From IMG/VR virus record IMGVR_UViG_3300013901_000002: a DNA stretch of 39,090 bases, one strand, 5' to 3'. The notes under the pieces were generated by a model that was not told the DNA's origin, ran no database searches, and saw only the letters and a list, made by a program, of their open reading frames with translations. The stretch comes from a virus. Below, piece after piece: positions 1,356 to 12,932 of this stretch (the first letter of the stretch is position 1; every line of letters begins with the position of its first letter). The position numbers were made by a program, and so were the translations under genes.

Positions 1356-1701
1356 GGGCGGCCTCCTGACTGTTGGCGGCGCTGCGTGCTTCGCGCCGGG
1401 CCTTCGCCAGACGGCGGAAATACTCCGACTGGCATTCCGGGCTGCACAGCTTCGCGCGGTGACGGTGCGTTGCGGCGACAAACTGCTTGCCGCAGACGAC
1501 GCAGGTGGACTGATACGGGGGCTTTTTGTGGACGGCTGCATGGCAGCGCGGGCAAAGGACAATGACCTCGGTCGGCTTGCTGTAGTCGGGGTGATGCCTC
1601 TGCAAAACCTTGCTGACCGCGCCGCAGCGCTGGCACTCTGTGACGCCATGTACGGCTCTCTGCGCGGCTTTCCAGACGGCCGCCTTATTTCGCGCGGTCA
1701 T
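1342..1701 (-). CDS. HNH endonuclease-like protein
   Basis: ATG at 1701 follows GAGAGGAG. The product contains ECQRCG...LQRHHPDYSKPTEVIVLCPRCHAAVH (HNH/zinc-finger pattern) and a second CxxC..CxxC. Confidence 0.75.
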   Translation of the reverse strand: MTARNKAAVWKAAQRAVHGVTECQRCGAVSKVLQRHHPDYSKPTEVIVLCPRCHAAVHKKPPYQSTCVVCGKQFVAATHRHRAKLCSPECQSEYFRRLAKARREARSAANSQEAAHADL

Positions 1702-1943
1702 AATTCTGACTCCTCTCGCGCAAAACCCAAGGCTGTCAGGGCTGCTCCAGCGCCGACCTCGTCGATCAGGTAGCCGTCCGCGCATTCCGCGTGGATTTTT
1801 TTGCCGCCGTAGGCCCAAACGACGTCGCCGGGGTAGATATCTCCGCCGCAGTAAGCACAGCAGCCGACGGGGGCCGGGTCGTCCGGCGGGTCGAGCGGCA
1901 GATCGGGCACGGCCAGCGGAGGAAGAATGCTGCGGTACGTCAT
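1698..1943 (-). CDS. Small CxxC protein, hypothetical
   Basis: ATG at 1943 follows GGAAGGAGG, and both ends have ATGA-type overlaps. Confidence 0.6.
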   Translation of the reverse strand: MTYRSILPPLAVPDLPLDPPDDPAPVGCCAYCGGDIYPGDVVWAYGGKKIHAECADGYLIDEVGAGAALTALGFAREESEL

Positions 1944-2320
1944 GGCCTGTCCTCCTTCCGGGGATCCGGCGCGACGAAGCGGCGGGGGACCTTGTTGTTA
2001 GCCGGGTCGGTCAGCGCGTTGATGACAACATCCGCGTCGCAGTAACAACGACCGTTTTCCCAGTTCGACAGGCTGACGGCGGACACGCCGAGCCGCGCGG
2101 CGGCATCGCGCTGCGTCAGCCTGAGAGAGCGCCGCGCGTCGTAGATGCGGCGGCCGTCGAGCCAGCGGCGCTTCTGATCGGTGTACTCCCGGACGGGGGA
2201 CAAGCCTCGCGCCTCGCGGCACAGTGCGGTGACCTCGTCGACAAACGCGATGGCATTGCCGGTCTCGGCCCACAAGTCAGCCAGCAGGGCGACGAGCTGC
2301 AAGCGCGGTGTTCTGGTCAC
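1940..2320 (-). CDS. XRE-type helix-turn-helix protein
   Basis: GTG at 2320 forms a GTGA overlap, with GGGAGGTG upstream. The C-terminal half reads LRLTQRDAAARLGVSAVSLSNWENG. Confidence 0.7.
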   Translation of the reverse strand: MTRTPRLQLVALLADLWAETGNAIAFVDEVTALCREARGLSPVREYTDQKRRWLDGRRIYDARRSLRLTQRDAAARLGVSAVSLSNWENGRCYCDADVVINALTDPANNKVPRRFVAPDPRKEDRP

Positions 2321-2637
2321 TGCTCGTCACCTCCCTGCGGGACACGTGCCAGCAGCACGGCGGCGATGGCGGACAGGGCGACGGTGCACCACGGGGCGGA
2401 CTTGAGCAGCAGGACGGCGAGGACGATGCAGGCAACGGCTGCGGTCGTCAGCACCATGCGGCGCTCTTCCCGCTGATGGGCACGGAGGGCGGCGCGGGTG
2501 CGGCGGGCGGCCGTTTCTGCGGCAAGCTCTGCCTCCTCTAGGCGGGCGGCTGCAAGACGGCGGTCGGTTTTTTCTGCAAGGGCTGCAAACTGCGCGGCCT
2601 CGATGCGGTCGGCAGCGGCGGGTTTTCTGGCGGTCAT
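2317..2637 (-). CDS. Coiled-coil protein with C-terminal transmembrane segment, hypothetical
   Basis: ATG at 2637 follows AAGGAGAA. A hydrophobic stretch reads VLTTAAVACIVLAVLLL. Confidence 0.55.
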   Translation of the reverse strand: MTARKPAAADRIEAAQFAALAEKTDRRLAAARLEEAELAAETAARRTRAALRAHQREERRMVLTTAAVACIVLAVLLLKSAPWCTVALSAIAAVLLARVPQGGDEQ

Positions 2638-2807
2638 GGGATTTTCTCCTTTCGGCTCCGGCAGTGCCGGGCGGTGATTTTTGGTTTTCAGCGGATCGGG
2701 CTTTTGGCCTTCGGCTCCCTCGCGCGCTCACGCGCACGCCCGTAAGCAGTGACGTGAGATAAGGGTTACAAGAGGGGATAATAGGGGAGATAGATATTAG
2801 GGGGTTT

Positions 2808-2856
2808 GGGGGGAAGAAGGAAGAGGGGGAAGAAGGGGGGAGAGAAGGGGAAGGGA
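2808..2856 (+). repeat. 49-nt all-purine tract with G-runs (G-quadruplex/triplex-prone)
   Basis: Only G/A occurs from 2808 to 2856. G-runs lie at 2808-2813, 2825-2829, 2835-2840, 2847-2850 and 2853-2855. Confidence 0.9.
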
Positions 2857-2918
2857 CAAATCAAAAAGTTTTCGGAAGGTGTTGCCGGAACCTTCCTGAA
2901 AGATTTATATAAGGTATC

Positions 2919-3019
2919 GGGAAGGGTCAGGGAAGGTTCAGGGAAGGTTCGGGGAAGGTTAAGGGAAGGTTCAAGGAAGGTTCGGCAAAGGTTCCCGCCC
3001 AAGGTTCCCTTAGGGTTCG
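2919..3019 (+). repeat. Phased 11-bp direct repeat array GGGAAGGTTCA (7 head-to-tail units plus 2 degenerate copies): iteron-like protein-binding array
   Basis: Units start at 2919, 2930, 2941, 2952, 2963, 2974 and 2985. Degenerate AAGGTTCC and AGGGTTCG copies follow, and an inverted pair of the same core lies at 2874-2881 / 2889-2896. Confidence 0.85.
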
Positions 3020-3026
3020 GGGCCGT

Positions 3027-3266
3027 TTACCAGACCCCGAACTCCCCATTCTTCGCACGAATCAGCAGATTCAGGTTGACACGATAGTGCCATGTTTTCG
3101 AATTAGGTGTCTTTTCGGCACGGCAGAAGGGGCAATCCCCCTCCTGCGCTTTCATCCGGATCTCCAGCGCGGTCACGCCGCTCTGCAGGTAACGGGCTGC
3201 GTCCTCGGGGCGGACGCGGGGCAATGCTCTCAGCTCCTCTTCGGTGAGCACTCTCAGACTGGCCAT
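3027..3266 (-). CDS. Excisionase/MerR-like HTH (HTH_17-like) DNA-binding protein
   Basis: ATG at 3266 follows TAGGAGGT. The pattern LTEEELRALPRVRPEDAARYL....CPF.....WHYRVNLNLLIRAKNG resembles small prophage Xis-like proteins. Confidence 0.55.
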   Translation of the reverse strand: MASLRVLTEEELRALPRVRPEDAARYLQSGVTALEIRMKAQEGDCPFCRAEKTPNSKTWHYRVNLNLLIRAKNGEFGVW

Positions 3267-3280
3267 ATGTACCTCCTAAT

Positions 3281-3427
3281 TTAAATACGTCCGGCTTTGG
3301 CGAGCTCGATGGCATCGTGCAGCGCCTCACCGTAGATCAACAGCCGTGCGAGCTGCTCGGCAGGCAGCTCCGAGGCCAGGGCGAGCAATTTCTGCGCATC
3401 TCTGCGCTGTGCATCATTAAGCGTCAT
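3281..3427 (-). CDS. 48-aa hypothetical protein
   Basis: ATG at 3427 lies 8 nt after GGGAGGTG. It translates MTLNDAQRRDAQKLLALASELPAEQLARLLIYGEALHDAIELAKAGRI. Confidence 0.6.
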   Translation of the reverse strand: MTLNDAQRRDAQKLLALASELPAEQLARLLIYGEALHDAIELAKAGRI

Positions 3428-3665
3428 TCTCTTTCACCTCCCGTTCGTGTTCGCGTTTCCGCGCGGCGGTCGCGTGGCGGTAGGCCTCCATTGCGGAGCG
3501 CTCTGCGGCGTGGGCCTGCAGCACGGTGCGCCATGCTTCACGCTCAGCGGCCGGGGACGCGCCGATGCGGGTTTCTACAATCCACGCATTCACGGCCTGC
3601 TTGCGGGCTTCCTGCGCCTCCTGCATGCGCTTGCGGGCGCGCTGTACCATTTTTTCAGTTGTCAT
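3417..3665 (-). CDS. 82-aa basic helical hypothetical protein
   Basis: ATG at 3665 forms an ATGA overlap, with GGAGGAAT upstream. Confidence 0.6.
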   Translation of the reverse strand: MTTEKMVQRARKRMQEAQEARKQAVNAWIVETRIGASPAAEREAWRTVLQAHAAERSAMEAYRHATAARKREHEREVKENDA

Positions 3666-3916
3666 TGTGATTCCTCCTGTTCTTTTTCGGTGGGCTTTTG
3701 GTTGTGGTGCGTCGTCCTCCATGCGGCGTCAAACAGCATTGCGGCGAGCGCGGAGACGGTCTCCAAATCGTCCTGCACGCTGTCGTGCATGATGTGGGTG
3801 ATGACGTTGGCCGGGTCTTTGTTGACAAGCTCGATCAGCTGCCGGATGTGGGCCACAGCGTCAAACGTGGCGCAGCGCAGTGCATCGGAAATGGTGCCTC
3901 TGGGTTTCTGGTCCAT
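3662..3916 (-). CDS. First gene of the early operon, hypothetical (84 aa)
   Basis: ATG at 3916 follows AAAAGGAGGA. It is the first ORF downstream of the early promoter. Confidence 0.65.
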   Translation of the reverse strand: MDQKPRGTISDALRCATFDAVAHIRQLIELVNKDPANVITHIMHDSVQDDLETVSALAAMLFDAAWRTTHHNQKPTEKEQEESQ

Positions 3917-4019
3917 TGCTTGTCCTCCTTTTTCGTGATTAGGTGTTGCTGCGGAGCTTCGCGTCTGCGAGGCCGCGTCTCAAAGTTTCTTTGTGATACT
4001 AATCGGTCTCGTCGTGACT

Positions 4020-4047
4020 ATTATATCACACGTTGTGATTTTGTCAA
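4020..4047 (-). promoter_or_regulatory. Early (lytic) promoter: TTGACA-16 nt-TATAAT with a TGn extension
   Basis: On the minus strand, TTGACA lies at 4047-4042 and TATAAT at 4025-4020. The operator palindrome sits in the spacer. Confidence 0.75.
4025..4039. promoter_or_regulatory. Operator palindrome ATCACAcgtTGTGAT, with further TGTGAT-type half-sites at 3992-3997, 4075-4080 and 4098-4103
   Basis: A perfect 6+3+6 inverted repeat lies between the divergent promoters. The same hexamer recurs over the -35/-10 elements of both promoters. Confidence 0.7.
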
Positions 4048-4067
4048 TGACTTTTTCGAGAAAATTA

Positions 4068-4096
4068 TTGACTTTGTGATTTTTTTGCGGTATTAT
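4068..4096 (+). promoter_or_regulatory. Repressor promoter TTGACT-17 nt-TATTAT
   Basis: TTGACT lies at 4068-4073 and TATTAT at 4091-4096, followed by AAGGAGG and the ATG at 4121. Confidence 0.65.
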
Positions 4097-4120
4097 TGTC
4101 ACACAAAAGGAGGTGACGCA

Positions 4121-4483
4121 ATGGACGAGAGAATCAAAGAACTCCGAAAGTCCATGAAGATGACGCAAGCAGAATTTGGGAAACGCATTGGCGTCAGGCC
4201 GAACACAATTACCAACTACGAAACAGGCCTGCGCACGCCGTCAGATGCTGCGATTTTGGCAATCTGCCGCGAGTTTGGCGTATCGGAGCAGTGGCTGCGG
4301 ACGGGAGAGGGCGAGATGTTCCCGCCGCGGGACGCCCTGCAGGAGCTGACGGAGATGGCCGGGCGGTTTCTGGGCAATCAGCCGACGGAGATCCAGCAGC
4401 GGGCGGCCCGGATGCTGTTTAATCTGCGGCCGGAGGATTGGGAGCTGATCGAGCGGAGAGCGAGGGAATTGCTCGGGGAATAA
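4121..4483 (+). CDS. XRE-family CI-like phage repressor (120 aa, no S24 peptidase domain)
   Basis: The product reads MDERIKELRKSMKMTQAEFGKRIGVRPNTITNYETGLRTPS... It is divergent from the early operon and has a strong RBS. Confidence 0.85.
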   Translation: MDERIKELRKSMKMTQAEFGKRIGVRPNTITNYETGLRTPSDAAILAICREFGVSEQWLRTGEGEMFPPRDALQELTEMAGRFLGNQPTEIQQRAARMLFNLRPEDWELIERRARELLGE

Positions 4484-4486
4484 GAA

Positions 4487-4516
4487 AAGCAGCACCGGAA
4501 TGGTGCTGCTTTTTTG
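4487..4516 (+). terminator. Rho-independent terminator of the repressor gene
   Basis: The stem is AAGCAGCACC/GGTGCTGCTT with a short GGAAT loop, followed by TTTTTT. Confidence 0.85.
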
Positions 4517-4660
4517 TATATCCGCCGGGAGCTGCGCGGCCGCGAGTGCGCCGGGCGCGTCATTGTCGGCGACAACAGATAGCACGCGCAACGCACGCGT
4601 GCGATTAGCCCGCCGAAGATCGGGGCGCACAGGGCCGCACAGGGGCCCACAGAGGCATAG

Positions 4661-4688
4661 CAAAAGCCCGGTGCGGAGTGCACCGGGC
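4661..4688 (-). terminator. Minus-strand intrinsic terminator ending the accessory (LPD/cassette) transcripts
   Basis: The stem is GCCCGGTGC/GCACCGGGC at 4666-4688, followed on the minus strand by TTTTG. Confidence 0.6.
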
Positions 4689-4709
4689 AAAATTATTTTC
4701 CGCCGGGGG

Positions 4710-4737
4710 TTGACTCCGGCACGAGATACGATACAAT
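4710..4737 (+). promoter_or_regulatory. Orphan promoter TTGACT-16 nt-TACAAT
   Basis: TTGACT lies at 4710-4715 and TACAAT at 4732-4737. No ORF with an RBS follows. Confidence 0.55.
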
Positions 4738-4743
4738 AGGGCC

Positions 4744-4846
4744 AGTAAGTCGTTGGGCCACGGCTTGCCGGGTTTACGCCATTGCGGGAATCTCCTTTCT
4801 TTCTTTTTCAGCGGGGCGCCGGGTGCTAAGTGCACCCGGCGTTTTG
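4744..4846 (+). ncRNA. Candidate ~100-nt sRNA with a CU-rich (CUCCUUUCUUUCUUUUU) segment, antisense to the 3' UTR of the 4858-5667 transcript
   Basis: It is bounded by the 4710-4737 promoter and the plus-strand terminator at 4817-4846. No plausible coding potential is present. Confidence 0.4.
4817..4846 (+). terminator. Plus-strand intrinsic terminator
   Basis: The stem is CGCCGGGTGC/GCACCCGGCG with a TAAGT loop, followed by TTTTG. The minus-strand side has no U-tract. Confidence 0.7.
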
Positions 4847-4857
4847 CTGTGCATCCA

Positions 4858-5667
4858 TCAGGCGGCAGAGGCCGAGCCCGGGATGCACTTAACGTGGATA
4901 TCGTAGTAAAAATTGGTATCGAAGTAGTCTACCATGGAGTTAGAGTTGTCATAGTGGTAGGCGCGGATGATGTTATCGACGGTTTTCAGAAGCCGGAGGC
5001 CGTCGGCGTTGAGCCAGTCGGCGGACGTCTCCAGATGGTACTGGTTGACGGAGTTGTAGCAGCGGGTCATGGCGCAATCGTAGGCGTAAGCGGCAGCGGC
5101 GGCGCGGATGCGCTCCTGATCGGCGGCGGGCATATCCCAATAGGTGCCGGAGTGGATGGCCGGGCCGTCTCCGGTGTCGATCCACGGCATACCGGCGGGG
5201 ATCCGGTATGCGGCCACATAGTCGGCGCGAGAGCGGATCAGCGCGGCGGGGGCCTTGATGGTGACGGTCAGGGCCTGGCCGCCGGTATAGGTCTTGCAGG
5301 CCACGGAGACGCCTTTGATGCCCGCACGCTTGATATCGGCGCGGATGGCTGCGGAAAGCTCGGCCCCGTGGAGGTACTGGCCGGACTTGCTGCCGTAGAC
5401 GGCGCCGCCGCCCAGGGATCCACCCGTTGAGACGGTCGGGGCGATTTCGGCGGGCTCATCGGCCGATGAGCCCAGGATGGCGGCGATAATCTCGCGCTCG
5501 GAAGCGTAGCCGTACCAGCATTTTTTGACGGTATGCCAGCGCATTTTGAGCTCCTTCAGTGCGGCGCGGACGGCTGCAGAGGGCTTGCTGTCAAAGGTGA
5601 CTTCTCGGGATGCAAATTCCCGGTTTTCGCGGATCTCGTAGTTGACTTTTCCGGGGTGCTGTGCCAT
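4858..5667 (-). CDS. LPD29-like (polyvalent-protein-associated domain) protein, function unknown
   Basis: ATG at 5667 follows GGAGGT. The N-terminus YEIRENREFASREVTFDSKPSAAVRAALKELKMRWHTVKKCWYGY matches a motif I recall from mobile-element LPD proteins. The family name is not verified. Confidence 0.7.
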   Translation of the reverse strand: MAQHPGKVNYEIRENREFASREVTFDSKPSAAVRAALKELKMRWHTVKKCWYGYASEREIIAAILGSSADEPAEIAPTVSTGGSLGGGAVYGSKSGQYLHGAELSAAIRADIKRAGIKGVSVACKTYTGGQALTVTIKAPAALIRSRADYVAAYRIPAGMPWIDTGDGPAIHSGTYWDMPAADQERIRAAAAAYAYDCAMTRCYNSVNQYHLETSADWLNADGLRLLKTVDNIIRAYHYDNSNSMVDYFDTNFYYDIHVKCIPGSASAA

Positions 5668-5753
5668 AATAGTAATACCTCCATAATGTTTCGTTGTGGG
5701 TGGTGGGCTTCTCGCGTTGTGAATCCGCTAAGATGGGCAACGCGGGAAGTTTT

Positions 5754-5963
5754 TTATTTGCTGCGGATCAAGTTCTTGATCGCTTCGCTTGTCTGGTAGC
5801 CTTTCGCCCGCTCTGCATCGACCATTGCAATGATGTCTGCGTCCTCAACCTTGCGGAGCTTTAACGCATACTGTTGATATGTCTTATCGTTGTAGCGCTT
5901 CTTTACCTCGTTGCTGGTGTGCGTTTTGCGCTTCGGCTTTTCCTGATTTTCTATTGACTTCAC
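5754..5963 (-). CDS. Ribbon-helix-helix (Arc/CopG-like) protein, cassette 1
   Basis: It has a GTG start. The product reads ..KPKRKTHTSNEVKKRYNDKTYQQYALKLRKVEDADIIAMVDAERAKGYQTSEAIKNLIRSK. It is a paralog of 6411-6629 and, more distantly, 7009-7194. Confidence 0.7.
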   Translation of the reverse strand: MKSIENQEKPKRKTHTSNEVKKRYNDKTYQQYALKLRKVEDADIIAMVDAERAKGYQTSEAIKNLIRSK

Positions 5964-6063
5964 CCGCTTTCTTATGCTATACTAAAGGTGGCCGGAGTAA
6001 GGCTTCCGGCTCACCTTTTGCGGTGGAGAGTAGCGGCGCTTTTGCGTGGGCCGCTACTCTTTT

Positions 6064-6180
6064 TTATGCCTTGACCTTGCTGTCCCGGACAATCTGGGCG
6101 GCCGCCTCGGCATCCTTCGCATTGCTTTCAATCAGCTTCGCAATGTTTTCAAGGTACTGGTTAAGCTCTGCGGTGGTCAT
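6064..6180 (-). CDS. 38-aa helical micro-protein, cassette 1
   Basis: The ATG at 6180 has a purine-rich SD-like stretch (AAGGAAGTGAGGA) ending about 10 nt upstream. It translates MTTAELNQYLENIAKLIESNAKDAEAAAQIVRDSKVKA and lies directly downstream of promoter P1. Confidence 0.5.
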   Translation of the reverse strand: MTTAELNQYLENIAKLIESNAKDAEAAAQIVRDSKVKA

Positions 6181-6236
6181 TTCGTCCAAGTCCTCACTTC
6201 CTTTTGTAAAAGCTGGTTGCTTTGCCTTACGCGCTT

Positions 6237-6265
6237 ATCTTAGCACATACGCTTACCCATGTCAA
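6237..6265 (-). promoter_or_regulatory. Cassette 1 promoter TTGACA-17 nt-TGcTAAGAT
   Basis: On the minus strand, TTGACA lies at 6265-6260 and TAAGAT at 6242-6237, with an extended -10 TGn. Confidence 0.7.
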
Positions 6266-6410
6266 GCCCCTTTTTTCACATTTTTTCGGCTGTCCCATCA
6301 GGGTCTTGCAATTTGCAAAAAACTGTGCCATAATAGTAATACCTCCATGATTTTGTGATGATTTGGTGGGGGGCCCGCTCCGTAACGTGCGCCAACACGG
6401 GAGCGGGTTT

Positions 6411-6629
6411 TTATTTATTCAGAGCTTCGCGAATTAACGATTTGACCGCGTCCGAGGTCTGCAGGCCAGAGGCTTTCCGGGCCGCGATGGCTGCGATCAC
6501 GTCGGCGTCGTCGACTTTGCGGAGCGATACAACCATGCGTTCATAGGTCTTCGCGTTATAACGCTGCTTCACGGCCGTGCTTGTATGCGTCTTCCGCTTC
6601 GGCTTTTCGATGTCTTCGATTGCTTTCAC
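6411..6629 (-). CDS. Ribbon-helix-helix (Arc/CopG-like) protein, cassette 2
   Basis: It has a GTG start. The product reads ..KPKRKTHTSTAVKQRYNAKTYERMVVSLRKVDDADVIAAIAARKASGLQTSDAVKSLIREALNK. Confidence 0.7.
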   Translation of the reverse strand: MKAIEDIEKPKRKTHTSTAVKQRYNAKTYERMVVSLRKVDDADVIAAIAARKASGLQTSDAVKSLIREALNK

Positions 6630-6668
6630 TCCCTTTTCGTGGCGGGCGGTTTCCCGCCCGCGCTGTTG

Positions 6669-6803
6669 TTACGCCTGATCGTTCGACGGCTTGTAAGTGT
6701 CGTTCCCGCTCTCGATCCAGAGGATGAAATCATTGATCGCGGTATCATTCCAACCGGCACTTCTCAGCCCGAGGATGACGCGGACCACTTCCGACATTGT
6801 CAT
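6669..6803 (-). CDS. 44-aa micro-protein, cassette 2
   Basis: ATG at 6803 follows AAAGGAGG. It translates MTMSEVVRVILGLRSAGWNDTAINDFILWIESGNDTYKPSNDQA. Confidence 0.55.
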   Translation of the reverse strand: MTMSEVVRVILGLRSAGWNDTAINDFILWIESGNDTYKPSNDQA

Positions 6804-6837
6804 TGCGGCTCGCCTCCTTTCTTTCTGGCGTGGCTTT

Positions 6838-6866
6838 ATGATAGCACATACACCGCAGTATGTCAA
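6838..6866 (-). promoter_or_regulatory. Cassette 2 promoter TTGACA-17 nt-TGcTATCAT
   Basis: On the minus strand, TTGACA lies at 6866-6861 and TATCAT at 6843-6838. Confidence 0.7.
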
Positions 6867-7008
6867 GCCCCTTTTTCAACATTCGTGATGTGATTTTCTT
6901 CAGGATTTCGCGTTGTGGTGGGGCCTCCCGCGCTGAGATCGGCCAAGATTCAGCGGCGCGGGGGCTTTTTATTTATCCAGATGCTAAATTGCCAGCACGG
7001 GGAGTTTT

Positions 7009-7194
7009 TTATTTTTCGTCGCGCTCGATATCTCGCCGGATAAGCTCTTTGATGTACCCGGCTTTGTTCGGGACACTATCCAATTTCTCGATGATCTCCG
7101 CGTCTGACTTGCGCATGAGGGCAAAGCCGTAGCGCTTGACGTTGGCGGCTTGCCATTTGGCGACCGCTTTCGGGCTGTATGCGATTGGTATCAC
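7009..7194 (-). CDS. Ribbon-helix-helix-like protein, cassette 3 (divergent paralog)
   Basis: It has a GTG start. The product reads ..VKRYGFALMRKSDAEIIEKLDSVPNKAGYIKELIRRDIERDEK, with the same strand-helix-helix pattern. Confidence 0.6.
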   Translation of the reverse strand: MIPIAYSPKAVAKWQAANVKRYGFALMRKSDAEIIEKLDSVPNKAGYIKELIRRDIERDEK

Positions 7195-7236
7195 TTCCTT
7201 TCTTACGGGCGGGCGGTTTCCCGCCCGCCCGCCGGG

Positions 7237-7386
7237 TTACTTCTGCGCGAGCCCAGCGATATACGCCTTGATGATCTTTTCGACTTCTTCGGGGGTGTAG
7301 CTCTCCACGTCCTTATCTGCGAAGATGGTCAAAAGATCGTAGGCCATCGCCTTTTTGATGTCCATGCTTTCCTGCGCACTCGGCAC
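7237..7386 (-). CDS. ~49-aa micro-protein, cassette 3 (start uncertain: GTG 7386 or ATG 7365)
   Basis: AAAGGAGG lies 9 nt upstream of the GTG at 7386. The product reads ..MDIKKAMAYDLLTIFADKDVESYTPEEVEKIIKAYIAGLAQK. Confidence 0.5.
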   Translation of the reverse strand: MPSAQESMDIKKAMAYDLLTIFADKDVESYTPEEVEKIIKAYIAGLAQK

Positions 7387-7419
7387 CGTCTTCACCTCCT
7401 TTCGGACTGGCGTGGCCTA

Positions 7420-7448
7420 AGTATAGCATAGTATTAACACTATGTCAA
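7420..7448 (-). promoter_or_regulatory. Cassette 3 promoter TTGACA-17 nt-TGcTATACT
   Basis: On the minus strand, TTGACA lies at 7448-7443 and TATACT at 7425-7420. Confidence 0.7.
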
Positions 7449-7636
7449 CCCCCCTATTCCAACATTTTTTCGGCTGACCCCATCCGGGGCGGCCCTTTTT
7501 TATGCCCAAAATGCACCTTTACACAGTGGCAAAGTATTGTATTTTGCCACTCTTTCAAACGCCGGGAACCCTTGCGCCGCAACGCTTTGCGGCCTATCCA
7601 CCACAACAAAATGTGCACTTATTCCGCAGGCGGCCC

Positions 7637-7664
7637 TTGACACCGGCACAAAAGCCGCTAAAAT
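7637..7664 (+). promoter_or_regulatory. Candidate late-operon promoter TTGACA-16 nt-TAAAAT
   Basis: TTGACA lies at 7637-7642 and TAAAAT at 7659-7664. It is the only good plus-strand promoter upstream of terS. Confidence 0.6.
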
Positions 7665-7680
7665 GGCACGCAAAAGTCAG

Positions 7681-7737
7681 TTTTGCATAGATTCCCCTAC
7701 GGGTAAGCTGGCTTACCCGATGGGGAATCATGCAAAA
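7681..7737 (+). promoter_or_regulatory. 57-nt three-tier hairpin in the late-operon leader RNA
   Basis: TTTTGCAT/ATGCAAAA, GATTCCCC/GGGGAATC and GGGTAAGC/GCTTACCC are nested around a central loop. It begins about 10 nt after the predicted start site and has no U-tract. Confidence 0.6.
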
Positions 7738-7773
7738 CCGATAGCAGCAAGCACACCAAAGGAGGCGGCAGCC

Positions 7774-8202
7774 GTGGCGATGACCCACACCCCGGACGAG
7801 ATTTGCACGATGGCGGCGGCCTACAAGGCCAAAGTCCAGGACGGCAAGATCAAGCGCGCAGACTGGGCCCACTTTTGCGGCCTTTGCGGCGAGTGCCTCG
7901 AGGACATGCAGAGAGCGATAACAGGCGAGACGAGCGAGGCAATAGACGGCAAGGCGTGGCAGGCGGAGGGCGATAGACAGCGCGTTGTCCATGCGCTCAA
8001 GGTGTTAAGCACCTTCATCCGCGGGGAATACTCGACGAGTAACGCGTGGAACGGCGCAATGGCACAAAAAGCCATGTTTAACATGCGCCAAAACTGGGAC
8101 GGGCAGGCGGCAAGCACCGAGGCGGACCGCAAAGCAGGCGGCGGGGAGATCACCGTGCGGCTGGTGGGCGACTTCGGCGGGGTCAAAGACCCGTTTAAGT
8201 GA
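7774..8202 (+). CDS. terS: Terminase small subunit
   Basis: GTG at 7774 lies 8 nt after AAAGGAGG. The size and the C-terminal ..MFNMRQNWDGQ.. pattern are typical of Firmicutes-phage small terminases, and it is the first late gene. Confidence 0.6.
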   Translation: MAMTHTPDEICTMAAAYKAKVQDGKIKRADWAHFCGLCGECLEDMQRAITGETSEAIDGKAWQAEGDRQRVVHALKVLSTFIRGEYSTSNAWNGAMAQKAMFNMRQNWDGQAASTEADRKAGGGEITVRLVGDFGGVKDPFK

Positions 8203-8862
8203 TCGCGCACACGCGCACGCGCGTACATTAAATGCGCGTAATGCGTCGCGGCGTCCGTACACCGTGGAATGCAGGCAATCTTGCACGGGTGCGGGCGCAT
8301 GTGTCCAATAAATGGGACTTCGGGCCAGGCCAACGTCAACAAAATATTTATTTTGTTGCGTTCGTGGCTGGATGCATGCAAGTAGCAGGCAATCGACTTG
8401 CACGGGCAATCAGGGCCGCAGGGGCGCGCGCAGAGGCCCGCGCAGGGCAATTCGGCTGCGCGCCGGGCTGCGGCAGACCGTGCCCGCCCGGATACCGGCT
8501 TGCGCTGCGATGAGCGAGGGAGGGGTGCCGGAAAAAGGGGTGCGCCCTTGAGCGCGAGGCGTAGTAGATATACCGCACCCCCGCGATGCCCAAAATCTCG
8601 GCGGTGCGTGTAACGCGCCACAAGTCCGGAACCACCCTTGACATAACGCCTGACGCGGGCGGAATAAATACGCGTTGCCGCCGCCGCGGGGCGGGATACA
8701 AGTACCCCGGCAGAAAAAGGGGTAGCCCCATGCGGGAATCGACCCCTGAAAAAAATCAGAAAGACACGGCAAACACCATTGCCGCGTAAATAGACAACAT
8801 TGCCCGATAGACCAATCGGGCGGCATTTCGATCCGCAGACCAGCGGGGAGAGGAGTAATGAA
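8203..8862. other. 660-nt non-coding, structure-rich gap between terS and the scaffold gene (candidate pac/cos region or ncRNA)
   Basis: No ORF has an RBS or sensible composition. A repeated GCAGGCAATC(GA)CTTGCACGGG (8271-8289, 8385-8406) flanks an AT-rich hairpin at 8337-8358, and there are many short GC hairpins. Confidence 0.6.
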
Positions 8863-9726
8863 ATGACAGATACCATGTACGACGATGCCTTTGGCGTAGA
8901 CCTGAGCGACGTGCTGTCGGGGGAAGCCCTCGCGGACGAGACGGTGGCTGAAGACGTCGGCTCTGCTGGCGGCGAGGGCCAGCAGGAACCGGAGAATGCG
9001 GGCGCTGAGAATGCCGGTGGCGATGACGGCCACGCGGCCGAAGGGAGCGAGAATGGAGCCGGGACGCCGGAAACGTTTGAGCTGACCTATCTGGGGGAGA
9101 AGCGCACGGTAAACCGGGCGGAAGTGGTGCAGCTCGCACAGAAGGGGCTGAACCATGACCGATTGCAGGAGCAGTGGAACGGACTTAAGGCGTCGAGAGA
9201 CGAGCTCCAGGGCTGGCGGCAGGCGAATCAGGGCGCGGTTGACGAAGTCACGGCGTATCTGAAAGAGACGGGCGGCAATGACATCGGACAGGTGCTTGAT
9301 GAGCTGCGGGTGTCTCAGCTGCAGAAGCAGGGCCTGTCGGAGGACGTCGCGCGGGAACGCGTGGCGCGCCAGCGTGCGGAGCGCCAGCTGATGGCAGGGC
9401 GAGCGTCGCAGTCTGAGGCTGAGAACCGGCGTCATCAGGCCGCTGATGATATCGCTGCCTTCCGGCGGGCGTATCCGAATGTCGCGGTCGACGCGGCGCT
9501 TCTGGGGCGTCTGAAAGACGATCTGGCGGCGACGGGCAATCTATCGAGCGCGTATATGCGCGCGGAGAATCGCAGGCTTGCCGCGGAGCTGGAGGCATCG
9601 AAGAAGGCTGCAGCGGCCGCCGCGCAGAATGCCTCGAACCGTCAGCGGAGCGCTGGCTCTCAGAAGTCGAGCGGCGGAGAAGCGCAGGACGATCAGTTCC
9701 TGAATGCACTGTTTTCGGAGGCATAA
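8863..9726 (+). CDS. Scaffolding-like protein (acidic N-terminus, coiled-coil)
   Basis: ATG at 8863 follows GGGGAGAGGAG. It lies immediately upstream of the capsid gene and has Q/E/R/A-rich helical composition. Confidence 0.6.
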   Translation: MTDTMYDDAFGVDLSDVLSGEALADETVAEDVGSAGGEGQQEPENAGAENAGGDDGHAAEGSENGAGTPETFELTYLGEKRTVNRAEVVQLAQKGLNHDRLQEQWNGLKASRDELQGWRQANQGAVDEVTAYLKETGGNDIGQVLDELRVSQLQKQGLSEDVARERVARQRAERQLMAGRASQSEAENRRHQAADDIAAFRRAYPNVAVDAALLGRLKDDLAATGNLSSAYMRAENRRLAAELEASKKAAAAAAQNASNRQRSAGSQKSSGGEAQDDQFLNALFSEA

Positions 9727-9759
9727 CGAGTTCGGCCCCACCGATAAATGGAGGGGCAT

Positions 9760-10827
9760 ATGGCCGTTATCAATCTTGCAACCAAGTACGCCGAACAGGC
9801 GGTTGAGCGTTTTTATCTCGAATCCATCACGGACGCGGCTTTCGACAAGTCGCATGACAGCGAATTTGTCGGCGTCAAGACCGTAAGAATCTATGACATC
9901 GGCACTGCGCCGGTCAATGACTACCAGCGCAGCGGCACGAGCCGCTACGGCTCCGTGGACGAGCTGTCTGACTCCATTCAGGAGCTGCAGATGACGCAGG
10001 ACAAGTCGTCCACGTGGAGCATCGACAAGGGCAACCAAAAGGAGCAGTTCAACGTCAAGCAGGCGGGCGAAACGCTGCAGCGCCAGCTGCGCGAGAAGTA
10101 CACGCCGATGATCGACAAGTACCGCATGCAGAAGTGGGCCGACGGAGCCGGTATCGCGAAGGCACTGACTGCCGCGCCGACCAAGAGCACCATCGTCAGC
10201 GCCATGCTGGACGCTGCGGCTGCTCTGGATGACGCCGGTGTGCCGGAATCCGGCCGCATGTTCTTCGTGCCGACGTCCTACTACAAGCACATCCTGCTTT
10301 CTGACGAGTTCTCGAAGGCGGATGCACTGATGGTGAAGGCCCTCGGCAAGGGCACGGTCGGCGAGCTGTTCGGCATCCCCGTCAAGAAGGTCCCGACCAG
10401 CTACATGCCGACGGACGTGTATTTCATGCTGATCTATAAGGGCGCTGCTGTTTCCCCGGTCAAGCTGCAGGACTACAAGATCAACACGGAGCCGCAGGGC
10501 ATTTCCGGCGATCTCGTCGAGATGCGCCTGATGTACGATGCCTTTGTGCTGGGCACGAAGGCCAGCGGCATCTACATTGCCACGGCAACGGGCAAGGTCG
10601 CCACGACGCCGACGATTGCTTTCGCGAGCAACGTCATGACGCTCACCGGCGACGAAGGCGCGACTTTTGTGTACACGACGGACGGCAGCGATCCGCGCTA
10701 TTCCAAGAGCGCTGTGACCTATAGCAGCACCAGCAAGCCGACTATCGAGGCCGGTGCAACGGTCAAGGCCGCCGCGACGAAGTCCGGCGTCTATCAGTCC
10801 GGCGTTGCCGAGAAGGTCAATAGCTGA
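9760..10827 (+). CDS. Major capsid protein with a C-terminal FN3-associated/Ig-like decoration domain
   Basis: ATG at 9760 follows GGAGGGG. Position and size fit a capsid gene, and the C-terminal VYTTDGSDPRYSKSAVTYSS..TVKAAATKSGVYQSGV motif fits the decoration domain. Confidence 0.7.
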   Translation: MAVINLATKYAEQAVERFYLESITDAAFDKSHDSEFVGVKTVRIYDIGTAPVNDYQRSGTSRYGSVDELSDSIQELQMTQDKSSTWSIDKGNQKEQFNVKQAGETLQRQLREKYTPMIDKYRMQKWADGAGIAKALTAAPTKSTIVSAMLDAAAALDDAGVPESGRMFFVPTSYYKHILLSDEFSKADALMVKALGKGTVGELFGIPVKKVPTSYMPTDVYFMLIYKGAAVSPVKLQDYKINTEPQGISGDLVEMRLMYDAFVLGTKASGIYIATATGKVATTPTIAFASNVMTLTGDEGATFVYTTDGSDPRYSKSAVTYSSTSKPTIEAGATVKAAATKSGVYQSGVAEKVNS

Positions 10828-10843
10828 CACATACCAACAGGAC

Positions 10844-10873
10844 ACGGCGGTGGGGCAACTCACCGCCGTTTGT
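10844..10873 (+). terminator. Hairpin/weak terminator after the capsid gene
   Basis: The stem is ACGGCGGTG/CACCGCCGT with an 8-nt loop, followed by TTTGT. Confidence 0.5.
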
Positions 10874-10901
10874 CATATAACACATTCCACAGGAGGTAAT
10901 C

Positions 10902-11237
10902 ATGGCAGTACATATCATTCTGGCGGCGATGGCCGTTGCCATTGCACTGCTGGCCATTGGATACGTTGGCCTGAGCCGCGAGACACGCAGGCGGACGGGG
11001 TGGCTGGAGCGAAGGCTCGGAGATGAACAGATCGTGACGAAGGGCATGACGGACAACATTGCCCGTCTGAACGACGGATACCGTGATCTTAAAGGCAAGG
11101 TCGACGCCATGAGCGACGCCGTCATGCCGGATGATTCCCTCGCCCGCCGGGCCAAGGAAGAGATCGATAAGTTCAACGCCGGTATCCATAATATCCTGAC
11201 CTATAACGGCCCGACGCACGACCAGCGAGGGGAGTAA
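10902..11237 (+). CDS. N-terminally membrane-anchored coiled-coil protein, hypothetical
   Basis: ATG at 10902 follows CAGGAGGT. The N-terminus reads MAVHIILAAMAVAIALLAIGYVGL. Confidence 0.6.
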   Translation: MAVHIILAAMAVAIALLAIGYVGLSRETRRRTGWLERRLGDEQIVTKGMTDNIARLNDGYRDLKGKVDAMSDAVMPDDSLARRAKEEIDKFNAGIHNILTYNGPTHDQRGE

Positions 11238-11240
11238 CCC

Positions 11241-12932
11241 GTGAAGCAGGTAAAACCGGATATCCGCACTGTCTGGAACCGCTATCAGCGGGGCGTGCAG
11301 TTCAACCAGCAGATCGGCTTATACCAGACGGTCGAAGATAATGAAAATATGTACATCGGCAAGCAGTGGGAGGGCGTGCAGGCAAATGGTCTTCCGACGC
11401 CGGTGTTTAATCTCTTAAAGCGCGTGACCATGTTCCAGGTGGCGACCATCACGTCCGATAACATTGCGGTCAGGGCGTCGGCCCTGCAGGCCACGCGCGG
11501 CTATGCCAAGAAGGACGTCGAAAAGGTGGCCGAGATCATCAACGAGCAGCTGGCGTCCGCGTTTGAGCGGAACCGTATTCCGACGATGCTGCGCGAGTAC
11601 GGCCGTAATGCTGCCGTAGACGGCGATGCCTGCATGTACACCTATTTTGACCCGACCGTTGAAAACGGGCAGGACGTCAAGGGTGAGCTGGTCACGGAGA
11701 TCATCGAGAATACCCGCGTGCATTTCGGCAATCCCAACAACCGCGATGTGCAGTCGCAGCCGTGGATCATTCTTGCCCGCCGCATGCTGCTCGAGGACGC
11801 GCAGTGGCGCGCACGGAACAACGGCATCCCGGAAGACCAGATCGATGCGATCCGGCCGGACGAGCAGGGATACTACAGCAAAATGGACTCCATCACGGAC
11901 GGCCGCGTGACTGTGCTGCTGTATTTCTGGCGCGACCGCGAGACCGGCACGATCTGGCGCTATGAGAGCACGCAGAACGCCTGCGTTTGCGAGCCGATCG
12001 ACACCGGCACGAAGCTGTATCCCATCACGTGGCTTTGCTGGGATTATATCCACGATTCCTATCACGGGCAGGCCTCCATCACGCAGCTGCGCCCGAATCA
12101 GATTTTTATCAACCGCATGTTTGCCATGGTCTTCCTGAGCCTGATGACGCTGGCCTTCCCGAAGATCATCTATGACAAGACCCGCCTGCCGGGCGGCTGG
12201 GATTCCCGCGTCGGCGCGGCGATTGCCGTCAACGGCGGCGACGTCAACAATATCGCCAAGATCATGGACCCGGCGCAGATTTCCCCGCAGGTCGGGCAGT
12301 TCATCCAGCTTGCCGTGGACTACACACAGAGTTTTCTGGGCGCTTCTGACGTGGCGATGGGCGACAGCCGCCCGGATAACACGAGCGCCATTCTGGCCCT
12401 GCAGCGGGCCGCCAACACGCCGCTGGAGCTGACCAAGCAGAATCTGTATCAGTCCGTCGAAGACCTGTGCAAGATTTATATCGACCAGATGCGTGTGTTC
12501 TTCGGCGTGCGCGTCGTCGAGAGCAAACCGCTCGACGTGGCCGATAACAAGCCGCTCGGCATCGACTTCTCGCAGGCGGAATTCCTGCAGGAGTTCGACT
12601 TTGCGACGCTGGGCGACATTCCCGTATCGGTCAAGCTGGATGTCGGCGCGTCGTCCTATTGGTCTGAGATCGCATCCATGCAGACGCTGGACAACTTGCT
12701 CATGCAGAACAAGATCGGGCTGCGCGAGTATCTGGAGCGTGTTCCTGCCGGATTCATCTCCAAGAAGCAGGAGCTGATCGACCTGTTGGATGCGGCTTCC
12801 AGTGCGCCGGTCGGCGGTGGCGGCGGCCCCGTCTCCGGCGAAGGAAGCAAAGTCGATGAGCTGCCCGTGCGGGGCGGCGGTGGTTACGGAGCGCTTCAGC
12901 GCGCCGTAACGCAGGAAGGAGCGAGTAGATGA
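11241..12932 (+). CDS. Portal protein
   Basis: It is 563 aa with a GTG start after GAGGGGAG. The N-terminal NMYIGKQWEG...GLPTPVFNLLKRV pattern is typical of portals. Confidence 0.8.
   Translation: MKQVKPDIRTVWNRYQRGVQFNQQIGLYQTVEDNENMYIGKQWEGVQANGLPTPVFNLLKRVTMFQVATITSDNIAVRASALQATRGYAKKDVEKVAEIINEQLASAFERNRIPTMLREYGRNAAVDGDACMYTYFDPTVENGQDVKGELVTEIIENTRVHFGNPNNRDVQSQPWIILARRMLLEDAQWRARNNGIPEDQIDAIRPDEQGYYSKMDSITDGRVTVLLYFWRDRETGTIWRYESTQNACVCEPIDTGTKLYPITWLCWDYIHDSYHGQASITQLRPNQIFINRMFAMVFLSLMTLAFPKIIYDKTRLPGGWDSRVGAAIAVNGGDVNNIAKIMDPAQISPQVGQFIQLAVDYTQSFLGASDVAMGDSRPDNTSAILALQRAANTPLELTKQNLYQSVEDLCKIYIDQMRVFFGVRVVESKPLDVADNKPLGIDFSQAEFLQEFDFATLGDIPVSVKLDVGASSYWSEIASMQTLDNLLMQNKIGLREYLERVPAGFISKKQELIDLLDAASSAPVGGGGGPVSGEGSKVDELPVRGGGGYGALQRAVTQEGASR

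What the first reader, a model, noticed from the sequence alone, without database searches (positions are those of the whole stretch)
5668..7450. Three tandem, diverged cassettes: strong promoter, micro-protein gene, conserved hairpin, RHH protein gene
Between the lysogeny switch and the packaging genes, the minus strand carries three units of about 600-660 bp with the same architecture. Each has an extended -10 promoter (TTGACA-17-TGcTAAGAT / TGcTATCAT / TGcTATACT at 6237-6265, 6838-6866 and 7420-7448). Each has an unrelated 38-49-aa micro-protein gene (6064-6180, 6669-6803, 7237-7386). A hairpin follows, which is GGGCGGGAAACCGCCC in units 2 and 3. Each then has an Arc/CopG-like RHH gene with a GTG start (5754-5963, 6411-6629, 7009-7194). 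Promoter-upstream sequence (CAGCCGAAAAAATGT..GGGG.TTGACAT) and downstream elements are also conserved. The RHH partner is conserved while the small partner differs in each unit. That pattern resembles a diversifying two-gene accessory system (immunity, anti-repressor, toxin-antitoxin-like or anti-defence) more than housekeeping phage functions. I do not recognise this arrangement as a described system.
Basis: partly seen in the sequence, partly recalled or inferred. Interest (0 to 1): 0.7.

Follow-up and report, generated by a model that had tools for sequence, protein, structure and literature searches.

The report
Self-repressed micro-protein cassettes in a prophage
A temperate gut-Clostridia phage carries three tandem mini-operons, each pairing a strong promoter and a tiny conserved protein with its own small probable repressor plus antisense RNAs; the circuit type is known, but this gene family and its stacked layout are undescribed and the tiny proteins' function is unknown.

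Summary
Three minus-strand units (about 7476-5668) each hold a near-consensus extended -10 promoter, a micro-ORF, an RNA element and a small RHH-type gene. An independent assembly 99.7% identical over this region carries the same three units, so this is not an artefact.

- The promoter spacer holds a palindrome (CATACT..AGTATG type) that recurs in 50+ related loci. It is the probable RHH operator, so each unit probably represses itself.
- The micro-proteins belong to three recurring, purifying-selected families, which also sit together in arrays in two other loci (L046, L029).
- Three plus-strand antisense sRNA genes are predicted: one between micro1 and RHH1, and two covering the ribosome-binding site of the downstream 269-aa gene or of its truncated copy.
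- The RHH genes probably start at ATA/ATC, not GTG.
- The last unit runs on into a 269-aa gene with a polyvalent-protein-associated (LPD-type) domain.

My best reading is an array of autorepressed cargo-plus-repressor cassettes. They combine the logic of P22 immI (Arc/sar/Ant), pMV158 copG-RNAII and acr-aca operons.

None of the proteins matches a described family, and cargo function is unknown. I rate it a new variant of a known kind, of moderate interest.

The parts
7420..7476 (-). Unit 3 promoter P3: A-tract upstream block 7449-7476, -35 at 7448-7443, extended -10 TGcTATACT ending at 7420. Palindrome CATAGTgttaatACTATG at 7427-7444 lies in the spacer.
7237..7386 (-). micro3, 49 aa, family A (..KKAMAYDL..YTxEExxKIIxxYI). 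It has a strong SD (AAGGAGGTGA) and a GTG start.
   Evidence: 29 clusters, 48-51 aa where the start is called as here; third-position bias of substitutions
7206..7233 (-). Intercistronic GC hairpin with GAAA loop and no U-tract (class 1 spacer).
   Evidence: -30.5 kcal/mol; L020 shows a compensatory G:C to A:T change
7009..7194 (-). RHH3, 61 aa from GTG. The probable start is ATC at 7185.
6923..7004 (.). Two hairpins after RHH3. They have T-runs only on the + strand (A-runs precede them on the sense strand) and are followed by the conserved CCCACCAC block.
   Evidence: (D8, D10)
6838..6866 (-). Unit 2 promoter P2: TTGACA-17-TGcTATCAT. Palindrome ACATACtgcggtGTATGT at 6846-6863.
6669..6803 (-). 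micro2, 44 aa, family B (..ILGLRxAGW...INDFILWxExG..YKP).
   Evidence: homologues in L029 and L046
6642..6661 (-). Intercistronic GC hairpin (class 1 spacer).
   Evidence: -21.2 kcal/mol
6411..6629 (-). RHH2, 72 aa from GTG. The probable start is ATC at 6620.
6306..6418 (+). Predicted antisense sRNA gene as3. Promoter TTGCAA-17-TGcCATAAT at 6306-6334; RNA of about 80 nt with a 5' ACCUCCAU hairpin and a terminator plus U-run.
   Evidence: (z -3.4)
6227..6331 (-). Remnant of the 269-aa gene start. A 32-nt copy of RBS + ATGGCACAG (6323-6354, 94% identical to 5659-5690) opens a 34-aa ORF that runs into P1.
   Evidence: D5
6237..6292 (-). Unit 1 promoter P1: A-tract block 6266-6292 and TTGACA-17-TGcTAAGAT. 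The palindrome is half-degenerate (ACATgggtaagcgtATGT, 6245-6262).
6064..6189 (-). micro1, family C. It is 41 aa from TTG 6189, or 38 aa from ATG 6180.
   Evidence: (49 representative clusters)
5954..6062 (+). Predicted convergent antisense sRNA gene as2. Promoter TTGACT-18-TGcTATACT at 5954-5983, with its -35 overlapping the RHH1 start. The RNA is about 75 nt and ends in a hairpin plus U6 at the micro1 stop codon.
   Evidence: (-42.1 kcal/mol, z -5.6)
5754..5963 (-). RHH1, 69 aa from GTG. The probable start is ATA at 5954.
5642..5758 (+). Predicted sar-like antisense sRNA gene as1. Promoter TTGACT-17-TGcCATAAT at 5642-5670, with its -10 overlapping the ATG of the 269-aa gene. The RNA begins with the anti-SD ACCUCC and ends in a 16-bp terminator plus U-run.
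   Evidence: (-37.4 against -18.8 kcal/mol for the sense strand)
4858..5667 (-). Distal gene of the P1 operon, 269 aa: a DUF3560-like 'KPS..R..LK..RW..K.WY' N-terminal module plus a region similar to the C-terminal half of a J-domain/LPD29 protein. Function unknown.
4666..4688 (.). Bidirectional terminator shared with the convergent cI-like repressor gene (4121-4483, +). It marks the end of the cassette operon.

Best explanation
The region is an array of three autonomous, negatively autoregulated cargo-plus-repressor cassettes in the accessory (moron) region of a temperate phage.

Proposed mechanism:
1. When no RHH protein is present (genome entry, or dilution), host sigma-A polymerase fires from three near-consensus extended -10 promoters with upstream A-tracts.
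2. Each transcript encodes first a well-translated micro-protein (strong SD, canonical start), which is the cargo. It then encodes a poorly translated RHH protein, set back by a near-cognate AUA/AUC start and sitting behind a stable intercistronic hairpin or a convergent antisense RNA.
3. The RHH dimer binds the palindrome between -35 and -10 of its own promoter and shuts it down. The result is a burst followed by a low set-point.
4. The last cassette continues into a 269-aa LPD-type gene. The ribosome-binding site of that gene is covered by a sar-like antisense sRNA (as1).
5. A second sRNA (as2) pairs with the micro1-RHH1 spacer.
6. A third sRNA (as3) is a relic copy created when a cassette was recombined in at the conserved RHH/asRNA/RBS junction.

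Shown: the anatomy, its conservation, purifying selection on micro2 and micro3 and sequence/length conservation of micro1, the variable copy number, and the pairing of variant operators with variant RHH N-termini.

Inferred: DNA binding and repression, the RNA products, start-codon use, and the timing of expression.

The function of the micro-proteins is unknown. By analogy with acr-aca operons and plasmid establishment operons, I think host-takeover or anti-defence effectors most likely.
For: Promoters and operators:
- The promoters are real and far above chance.
- 72 of 107 distinct RHH loci have a strong upstream promoter. Most of those 72 read TTGACA-TACT-N4-7-AGTATG-n-TATAAT. The promoter sits 48-82 nt upstream of RHH with no cargo, or 236-440 nt upstream with micro-ORF cargo.
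- Variant RHH N-termini go with variant palindromes: window unit 3 and L020 have CATAGT..ACTATG, L027 has CATATC..GATATG, and L105 has a different RHH with ATGGGATATCCCAT.

RHH assignment:
- The AlphaFold2 model has pLDDT 85.5, with an extended segment followed by two helices.
- Family members that share the N-terminal KRKTxTSxxVKxRYNxKTY motif hit Pfam RHH_1 above threshold (32.5 bits, E 8e-8).

Cargo genes are real:
- Family A has 29 clusters, 48-51 aa where the start is called as here.
- micro1 has 49 representative clusters.
- Substitutions concentrate at third codon positions.
- Families A, B and C occur together in three independent arrays in different order: the window, L046 and L029.

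RNA elements:
- Class 1 hairpins are kept with different stem sequences.
- Antisense promoters are called independently by the scan tool, and the predicted RNAs fold well (z -5.0, -5.6 and -3.4).
- For as1, the antisense strand folds far better than the sense strand (-37.4 against -18.8 kcal/mol).
- as1-like genes are conserved in 7 further loci, with their variable terminators maintained.
- A convergent antisense promoter is present in at least 20 of 110 loci.

Start codons: 25 of about 82 RHH genes have ATA/ATC/ACG/ATT where the others have ATG, in the same SD geometry. L009 has an in-frame TGA just upstream.

Copy number is 1, 2 or 3 in close relatives. No cI-type operator is found at the cassette promoters.
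Against: - There is no expression, binding or phenotype data. Everything rests on sequence and comparison.
- The three window RHH proteins have no significant Pfam hit themselves. The profile comparison with Arc is not significant, and Foldseek on the monomer model gives nothing.
- The unit 1 palindrome is half-degenerate, so P1 may escape autorepression.
- The GC hairpin could have another role, such as attenuation or protein binding.
- Covariation support for the class 2 antisense RNA alignment is weak.
- A GTG start for the three window RHH genes is not excluded.
- The cargo proteins hit no anti-defence or other functional family.
Confidence: 0.6

Rival explanations
1. An immI-type second immunity region. 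The point of the array is to control the 269-aa protein, which would act as an antirepressor against the adjacent cI-like repressor. The RHH proteins would play the part of Arc, as1 the part of sar, and the micro-proteins would be incidental passengers.
For: - The layout is promoter, then RHH, then an antisense RNA over the RBS, then a distal gene. This mirrors P22 Pant-arc-sar-ant (PMC2629481).
- The locus lies next to, and converges on, the cI-like HTH gene.
- The phage has a P22-like portal.
- L105 has a divergent Mnt-like RHH in front of the equivalent gene.
Against: - The 269-aa protein has no ANT, Bro-N, P22_AR or other Pfam hit and no PDB fold match. Its relatives are LPD or DUF3560 module proteins.
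- In related loci the same position holds J-domain proteins.
- Units 2 and 3 have no distal gene of their own.
- The micro-proteins are strongly conserved, which does not fit passengers.
Confidence: 0.15
2. Toxin-antitoxin or addiction modules. The micro-protein would be a toxin, neutralised either by the RHH protein (type II, reversed order) or by the antisense RNA (type I).
For: - In related loci the cargo position is filled by 26-29-aa hydrophobic peptides ending in KKK. These have an SD-sequestering 5' hairpin and a convergent antisense RNA ending at the stop codon. That is the defining geometry of type I TA systems (PMC6563280).
- as2 has this geometry in window unit 1.
- Small arrays occur as islands in bacterial chromosomes (L046, L001).
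Against: - The three window micro-proteins are soluble, acidic and helical, not hydrophobic.
- Units 2 and 3 have no antisense promoter.
- Family A genes occur alone with their own terminator (L110-113, L029).
- Many RHH genes have no cargo.
- The RHH domain is C-terminal and no toxin-binding tail follows it.
- There are no hits to TA families.
Confidence: 0.1
3. The micro-ORFs are regulatory leader peptides or upstream ORFs. Their translation would merely tune RHH expression through the hairpin, and the peptides themselves would have no function.
For: - Each micro-ORF stop codon lies 3-17 nt before a strong hairpin that sits just upstream of the RHH SD.
- The RHH genes have weak start codons.
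Against: - Peptide sequence and length are conserved across distant loci, with synonymous-biased change.
- The same families occur without a downstream RHH gene.
- The hairpin does not include the RHH SD.
Confidence: 0.05

Closest known systems
P22 immunity I region (Pant-arc-sar-ant, with mnt)
   Same: An RHH autorepressor is the promoter-proximal regulator. A small antisense RNA is made from a promoter at the junction and covers the ribosome-binding site of the distal gene. The region is a variable 'moron' that differs between related phages (PMC2629481).
   Different: - Here a micro-protein gene precedes each RHH gene.
- There are three stacked units.
- There is no divergent Mnt in the window.
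- The distal gene is not an Ant homologue.
- The RHH family carries a conserved basic N-terminal extension and has no detectable sequence similarity to Arc.
acr-aca anti-CRISPR / anti-defence operons, including the RHH regulator Aca14
   Same: A strong promoter contains an inverted-repeat operator. Small, exchangeable cargo genes come first, and a conserved autorepressor comes last. RHH-type Aca proteins are now known (bioRxiv 10.64898/2026.07.27.740549).
   Different: - No cargo here matches any known anti-defence protein.
- Homology of this RHH family to Aca14 was not tested.
- The hosts are Clostridia, not Proteobacteria.
- The antisense sRNAs, near-cognate starts and tandem arrays are extra features.
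pMV158-type copG-RNAII-repB copy-control circuit (from my own knowledge) and Pfam RepB-RCR_reg
   Same: An RHH autorepressor and a countertranscript against the translation start of the downstream gene sit in one operon. One wider-family member reaches the RepB-RCR_reg threshold (21.5 bits against a cut-off of 21).
   Different: The downstream 269-aa protein shows no Rep or other Pfam hit, and no HUH motif appears among its invariant residues. The element is an integrase-bearing phage, not a rolling-circle plasmid.
Reg(p576) RHH-controlled establishment genes of pLS20-family conjugative plasmids
   Same: These are Firmicutes mobile elements in which an RHH repressor acts on strong promoters to give transient expression of early 'establishment' genes (PMC8708921). 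One cassette here (L001) sits beside remnants of a conjugative element.
   Different: Homology to Reg576 was not tested. The operator layout differs, and those operons carry larger known genes rather than micro-ORFs.
Type I toxin-antitoxin systems of Firmicutes
   Same: A convergent antisense RNA overlaps the 3' end of a tiny ORF's mRNA. Related loci carry hydrophobic KKK-ended peptides in the cargo slot (PMC6563280).
   Different: The window's cargo proteins are not hydrophobic. An RHH gene is co-transcribed downstream. No Rfam antitoxin RNA matches.

Membership tests
Ribbon-helix-helix (CopG/Arc/MetJ) superfamily | Strand-helix-helix topology of about 45 residues | tested here: met
   AlphaFold2 model of RHH1: residues 29-41 extended, helices at 42-53 and 58-68, pLDDT above 89 in that part. 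The monomer cannot show the paired strand.
Ribbon-helix-helix (CopG/Arc/MetJ) superfamily | Significant profile match to an RHH family | tested here: inconclusive
   The window proteins give no Pfam hit at E<1, and hhalign against Arc is not significant. Wider-family members with the same N-terminal motif and the same operator hit RHH_1 (32.5 bits against a cut-off of 20.5), and more weakly, below their cut-offs, RHH_5 and NikA-like.
Ribbon-helix-helix (CopG/Arc/MetJ) superfamily | Dimer that binds a repeated or palindromic operator | not testable with these tools
   Only the conserved palindrome in the promoter spacer is seen.
acr-aca type anti-defence operon | Strong promoter with an inverted-repeat operator, and a conserved regulator gene last in the operon | tested here: met
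acr-aca type anti-defence operon | Cargo is a known or demonstrated anti-defence protein | not testable with these tools
   No anti-defence library is available. Pfam, NCBIfam, PHROGs and PADLOC give nothing.
acr-aca type anti-defence operon | Regulator homologous to a named Aca family (Aca1-14) | not tested
   No Aca sequences were at hand.
P22 immI | Antisense RNA from a junction promoter that covers the RBS of the distal gene | tested here: met
   Prediction only: promoter 5642-5670, an RNA carrying anti-SD ACCUCC, and a terminator. It is conserved in 7 other loci.
P22 immI | Distal gene is an antirepressor (Ant / Bro-N / P22_AR domains) | tested here: not met
   No Pfam hit at E<1 and no PDB fold match.
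P22 immI | Second, divergently transcribed RHH repressor (Mnt) | tested here: not met
   The family HMM finds only the three same-strand RHH genes in the window. A divergent RHH exists in L105.
Type I toxin-antitoxin | Small hydrophobic toxic peptide | tested here: not met
   The window's micro1-3 are acidic and helical. The feature is met only in related loci: families D, E and F.
Type I toxin-antitoxin | Antisense RNA overlapping the toxin mRNA | tested here: met
   as2 overlaps the 3' UTR and stop codon of micro1. This is a prediction.
Type II toxin-antitoxin (RHH antitoxin) | Partner is a recognised toxin family, and the antitoxin has a toxin-binding extension after the DNA-binding domain | tested here: not met
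   No toxin family hit. The RHH domain is C-terminal with nothing after it.
pMV158 copG-RNAII-rep | Downstream gene is a rolling-circle Rep initiator | tested here: not met
   No Rep Pfam hit, and the invariant residues show no HUH motif.

The most novel reading that the evidence does not exclude
These cassettes would be members of a widespread, undescribed modular system of Clostridia phages and conjugative elements. A dedicated RHH family, marked by the KRKTxTS..VK.RYN.KTY arm, the CATACT..AGTATG operator and near-cognate start codons, would serve as a portable 'expression governor'. Its interchangeable micro-protein cargo would range from type-I-toxin-like membrane peptides to soluble 40-50-aa proteins. 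The three cargo families here (A, B, C), which recur together in arrays, would be new anti-defence or host-takeover effectors acting at genome entry.
Probability: 0.3. Interest if true: 0.75.

Novelty: new variant of a known kind. Interest (0 to 1): 0.55.

Why it matters
If the reading is right, it gives a simple, searchable signature for finding unannotated micro-proteins of gut Clostridia phages and ICEs. These organisms have almost no known early or anti-defence genes. The signature is a TTGACA-TACT..AGTATG-TATAAT promoter plus the KRKTxTS RHH arm.

It also shows a family of regulators that gene callers systematically miss. RHH3 in L168 and the RHH genes of L165-L167 were not called, probably because they start at AUA/AUC/ACG.

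It adds further predicted examples of sar-like antisense control, this time outside the enterobacterial P22 group.

Finally, it suggests how such arrays grow: by recombination at a conserved junction between the RHH gene, the antisense RNA and the RBS.

Tried and rejected
- Searches of INPHARED phages, both near and distant, found no match.
- Pfam, PHROGs, NCBIfam and PADLOC scans of all six proteins and the 269-aa protein gave nothing above threshold.
- A PDB sequence search with the RHH profile returned 0 hits.
- Foldseek of the RHH monomer model gave nothing significant.
- hhalign of the RHH profile against Arc and against a canonical RHH from L105 was not significant.
- Rfam scans of the window and of 8 related loci found no family for the hairpins or antisense RNAs.
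- RNAalifold on eight class 2 antisense RNAs suffered from poor alignment and gave only weak covariation, so I did not build a covariance model.
I repeated it with a narrower alignment.
- The degenerate pattern for as1 promoters was unspecific (51 stretches). I filtered the matches by -35 box and fold.
- Family C against DpnD/PcfM gave only 3 of 17 members, all below threshold. I keep this as a lead only.
- I tested whether cI operators (ATCACAcgtTGTGAT) control the cassette promoters and found no such site there.
- I rejected an assembly artefact, because L168 is an independent assembly.
- I rejected recent duplication, because the units differ by 27% or more at the DNA level and carry unrelated cargo.
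Full report
**Observation.** Read on the minus strand, window 7476-5668 holds three units with one plan. The promoter scan finds TTGACA-17-TATACT (7448-7420), TTGACA-17-TATCAT (6866-6838) and TTGACA-17-TAAGAT (6265-6237). All three have an upstream TG, and the region has 11 promoter-like sites against 1.6 expected. The six ORFs, the repeated GC hairpin (6642-6661 and 7209-7228) and the conserved flanks are all present. An independent ENA assembly (L168) carries the same three units. It is 99.7% identical over window 4501-8300 and 99.5% over 1240-11666. The array is therefore real. The units are too diverged, at 73% identity or less with unrelated cargo, to be a recent duplication.

**Context.** The window is a temperate phage.
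- It has a P22-like portal, TerL and an amidase.
- It has a tyrosine integrase, RusA, SSB and ERF.
- A cI-like HTH gene lies at 4121-4483 on the + strand.
- The cassettes run from the start of the late operon towards the 3' end of cI. They end at a bidirectional terminator at 4666-4688.
- No close relative exists in INPHARED.

**The RHH family.** A profile of the three proteins finds 246 unannotated 60-90-aa proteins. They come from phage-sized contigs and from Clostridia MAGs such as Oscillospiraceae, Acutalibacteraceae and Ruminococcus.
- All share an N-terminal arm, KRKTxTSxxVKxRYNxKTY.
- The AlphaFold2 model (pLDDT 85.5) gives an N-terminal helix, an extended segment and two helices.
- The window proteins have no Pfam hit.
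- Members with the same arm but other C-terminal halves hit RHH_1 above threshold, and more weakly NikA-like and RepB-RCR_reg.
- I accept the RHH assignment, but it rests on transitive evidence.

**Operator.** Of 107 distinct RHH loci, 72 have a strong upstream promoter. Most of those 72 read TTGACA-TACT-N4-7-AGTATG-n-TATAAT, which places a palindrome inside the spacer.
- The promoter lies either 48-82 nt upstream of the RHH gene with no cargo, or 236-440 nt upstream with micro-ORFs in between.
- Variant N-terminal arms go with variant palindromes: window unit 3 and L020 have CATAGT..ACTATG, and other variants occur in L027, L046 and L105.
- This is the signature of an autorepressor and its operator. 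Binding itself is inferred.
- The unit 1 palindrome is half-degenerate.
- No cI-type operator occurs at these promoters.

**Cargo.** The micro-ORFs upstream of RHH genes fall into recurring families.
- micro3 belongs to family A: 29 clusters, 48-51 aa where the start is called as here.
- micro2 belongs to family B.
- micro1 belongs to family C: 49 representative clusters, with a probable start at TTG 6189.
- Substitutions pile up at third codon positions, for example 10/8/25 and 15/8/35 across the three positions. These are protein-coding genes under purifying selection.
- Families A, B and C also occur together, in a different order, in the arrays of L046 and L029.
- Related loci carry 26-29-aa hydrophobic KKK-ended peptides in the same slot.
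- No family matches Pfam, NCBIfam or PADLOC. Family C has only a sub-threshold hint to DpnD/PcfM.

**Intercistronic RNA elements.** There are two classes of spacer between the micro-ORF and the RHH gene.
- *Class 1* (units 2 and 3) is a 17-50-nt spacer with a perfect GC hairpin and no U-tract.
  - Its stem sequence differs between loci, with compensatory changes.
  - It is replaced by a true terminator when no RHH gene follows.
- *Class 2* (unit 1) is a spacer of about 100 nt that carries a plus-strand promoter, TTGACT-18-TGcTATACT at 5954-5983.
  - Its -35 box overlaps the RHH1 start, which explains the conserved GTCAATAG.
  - The predicted RNA is about 75 nt and ends in a hairpin plus U6 at the micro1 stop codon (-42.1 kcal/mol, z -5.6).
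  - This is the geometry of a type I toxin-antitoxin system (PMC6563280), but the window's cargo protein is not hydrophobic.

**Distal gene and sar-like RNAs.** RHH1 is followed, with no sense promoter in between, by a 269-aa gene.
- That gene has 672 homologous clusters and no Pfam hit.
- Its AlphaFold2 model is confident, but it has no PDB match. Its BFVD neighbours include LPD and DUF3560 proteins.
- It shares two modules with a J-domain/LPD29 protein that occupies the same position in L105.
- A plus-strand promoter at 5642-5670, whose -10 box overlaps the gene's ATG, would give an RNA of about 80 nt. That RNA begins with the anti-SD ACCUCC and ends in a 16-bp terminator.
- It folds at -37.4 kcal/mol, against -18.8 for the sense strand. 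This fits selection on the antisense RNA.
- The same device is conserved in L009, L020, L025, L041, L115, L149 and L163, with different but maintained terminators.
- A second copy (as3, 6306-6418) sits after RHH2, beside a 32-nt duplicate of the RBS and ATGGCACAG.
- L046 shows the equivalent: a truncated J-domain gene after a cassette.
- Relatives carry 1, 2 or 3 cassettes. Arrays therefore seem to grow by recombination at this conserved junction.

**Start codons.** In 25 of about 82 distinct RHH genes, ATA, ATC, ACG or ATT sits where the others have ATG, 4-6 nt after GGAGGTGA. This includes all three window genes.
- In L009 an in-frame TGA precedes the ATA codon.
- Gene callers skipped RHH3 in L168 and the RHH genes of L165-L167.
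- Weak initiation of the repressor fits a design with high cargo and low repressor.

**Interpretation.** The best-supported model is an array of autorepressed cargo-plus-RHH cassettes, with antisense control of the distal genes.
- It works like P22 immI (PMC2629481), like pMV158 copG-RNAII-rep (my own knowledge) and like acr-aca operons. The acr-aca group now includes an RHH regulator, Aca14 (bioRxiv 10.64898/2026.07.27.740549).
- It also resembles the Reg(p576) establishment operons (PMC8708921).
- It fails the membership tests for immI (no Ant, no Mnt), for type I and type II toxin-antitoxin systems, and for the Rep circuit.
- What the micro-proteins and the 269-aa protein do remains unknown.

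I rate it a new variant of a known kind, interest 0.55.

Noticed in passing
window 5642-5758, 5954-6062, 6306-6418 (+ strand): Three predicted antisense sRNA genes, each with an extended -10 promoter and an intrinsic terminator, lie inside the cassette array. None matches an Rfam family.
   Followed up: yes
window 5952-5954, 6618-6620, 7183-7185; related loci L009, L025, L041, L165, L068: The RHH genes appear to start at near-cognate codons (ATA, ATC, ACG), placed 4-6 nt after a full GGAGGTGA Shine-Dalgarno sequence. Automatic gene calling misses several of these genes.
   Followed up: partly
L009 4700-4900; also L014, L017, L018, L025, L050, L068 3000-3070, L115 5397-5480: Related cassettes carry 26-29-aa hydrophobic peptides (MTVLEVLALLNLLAVVIFGVIxVTKKK and others). 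These have an SD-sequestering 5' hairpin and a convergent antisense RNA, so they are type-I-toxin-like modules co-transcribed with an RHH gene.
   Followed up: partly
L046 1500-4450; L001 5800-6760: Cassette arrays also occur as small islands in bacterial contigs without phage genes nearby. L046 has cassettes B, C and A, plus one intact and one truncated J-domain gene. L001 has a cassette plus two family A genes beside a tRNA gene and fragments of a conjugative element.
   Followed up: partly
window 2919-2994: An 11-bp tandem array (GGGAAGGTTCA, 6.9 copies, 84% matches) lies in the early region. It is iteron-like and unrelated in sequence to the cassette operators.
   Followed up: partly
window 4710-4737 (+): A promoter-like site (TTGACT-16-TACAAT) lies just after the cI terminator and points antisense into the 269-aa gene. 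No convincing + strand ORF follows it.
   Followed up: no
window 7690-7729 and 7518-7558: Two 19-nt inverted repeats flank the + strand promoter-like site at 7637-7664, at the start of the late operon. One would form a hairpin in the 5' leader.
   Followed up: no
window 23733-30749 (+): A 2338-aa ORF with no Pfam hit. Related phages (L105-L108) carry giant ORFs of about 2000 aa, most with a PBECR3 polyvalent-protein domain, next to their cassette regions.
   Followed up: no
window 4025-4039 and 3991-4083: The lysogeny switch holds a perfect palindrome (ATCACAcgtTGTGAT) and three TTGTGAT half-site repeats, between divergent consensus promoters at 4047-4020 (-) and 4068-4096 (+).
   Followed up: partly
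L105 5449-5760: In a related phage the J-domain/LPD29 gene is preceded by a divergently transcribed canonical RHH gene (sub-threshold NikA/ParD-like hits). A palindrome, CATGTGAGTTAACTCATG, lies in the shared promoter region. This is a Mnt-like arrangement.
   Followed up: partly
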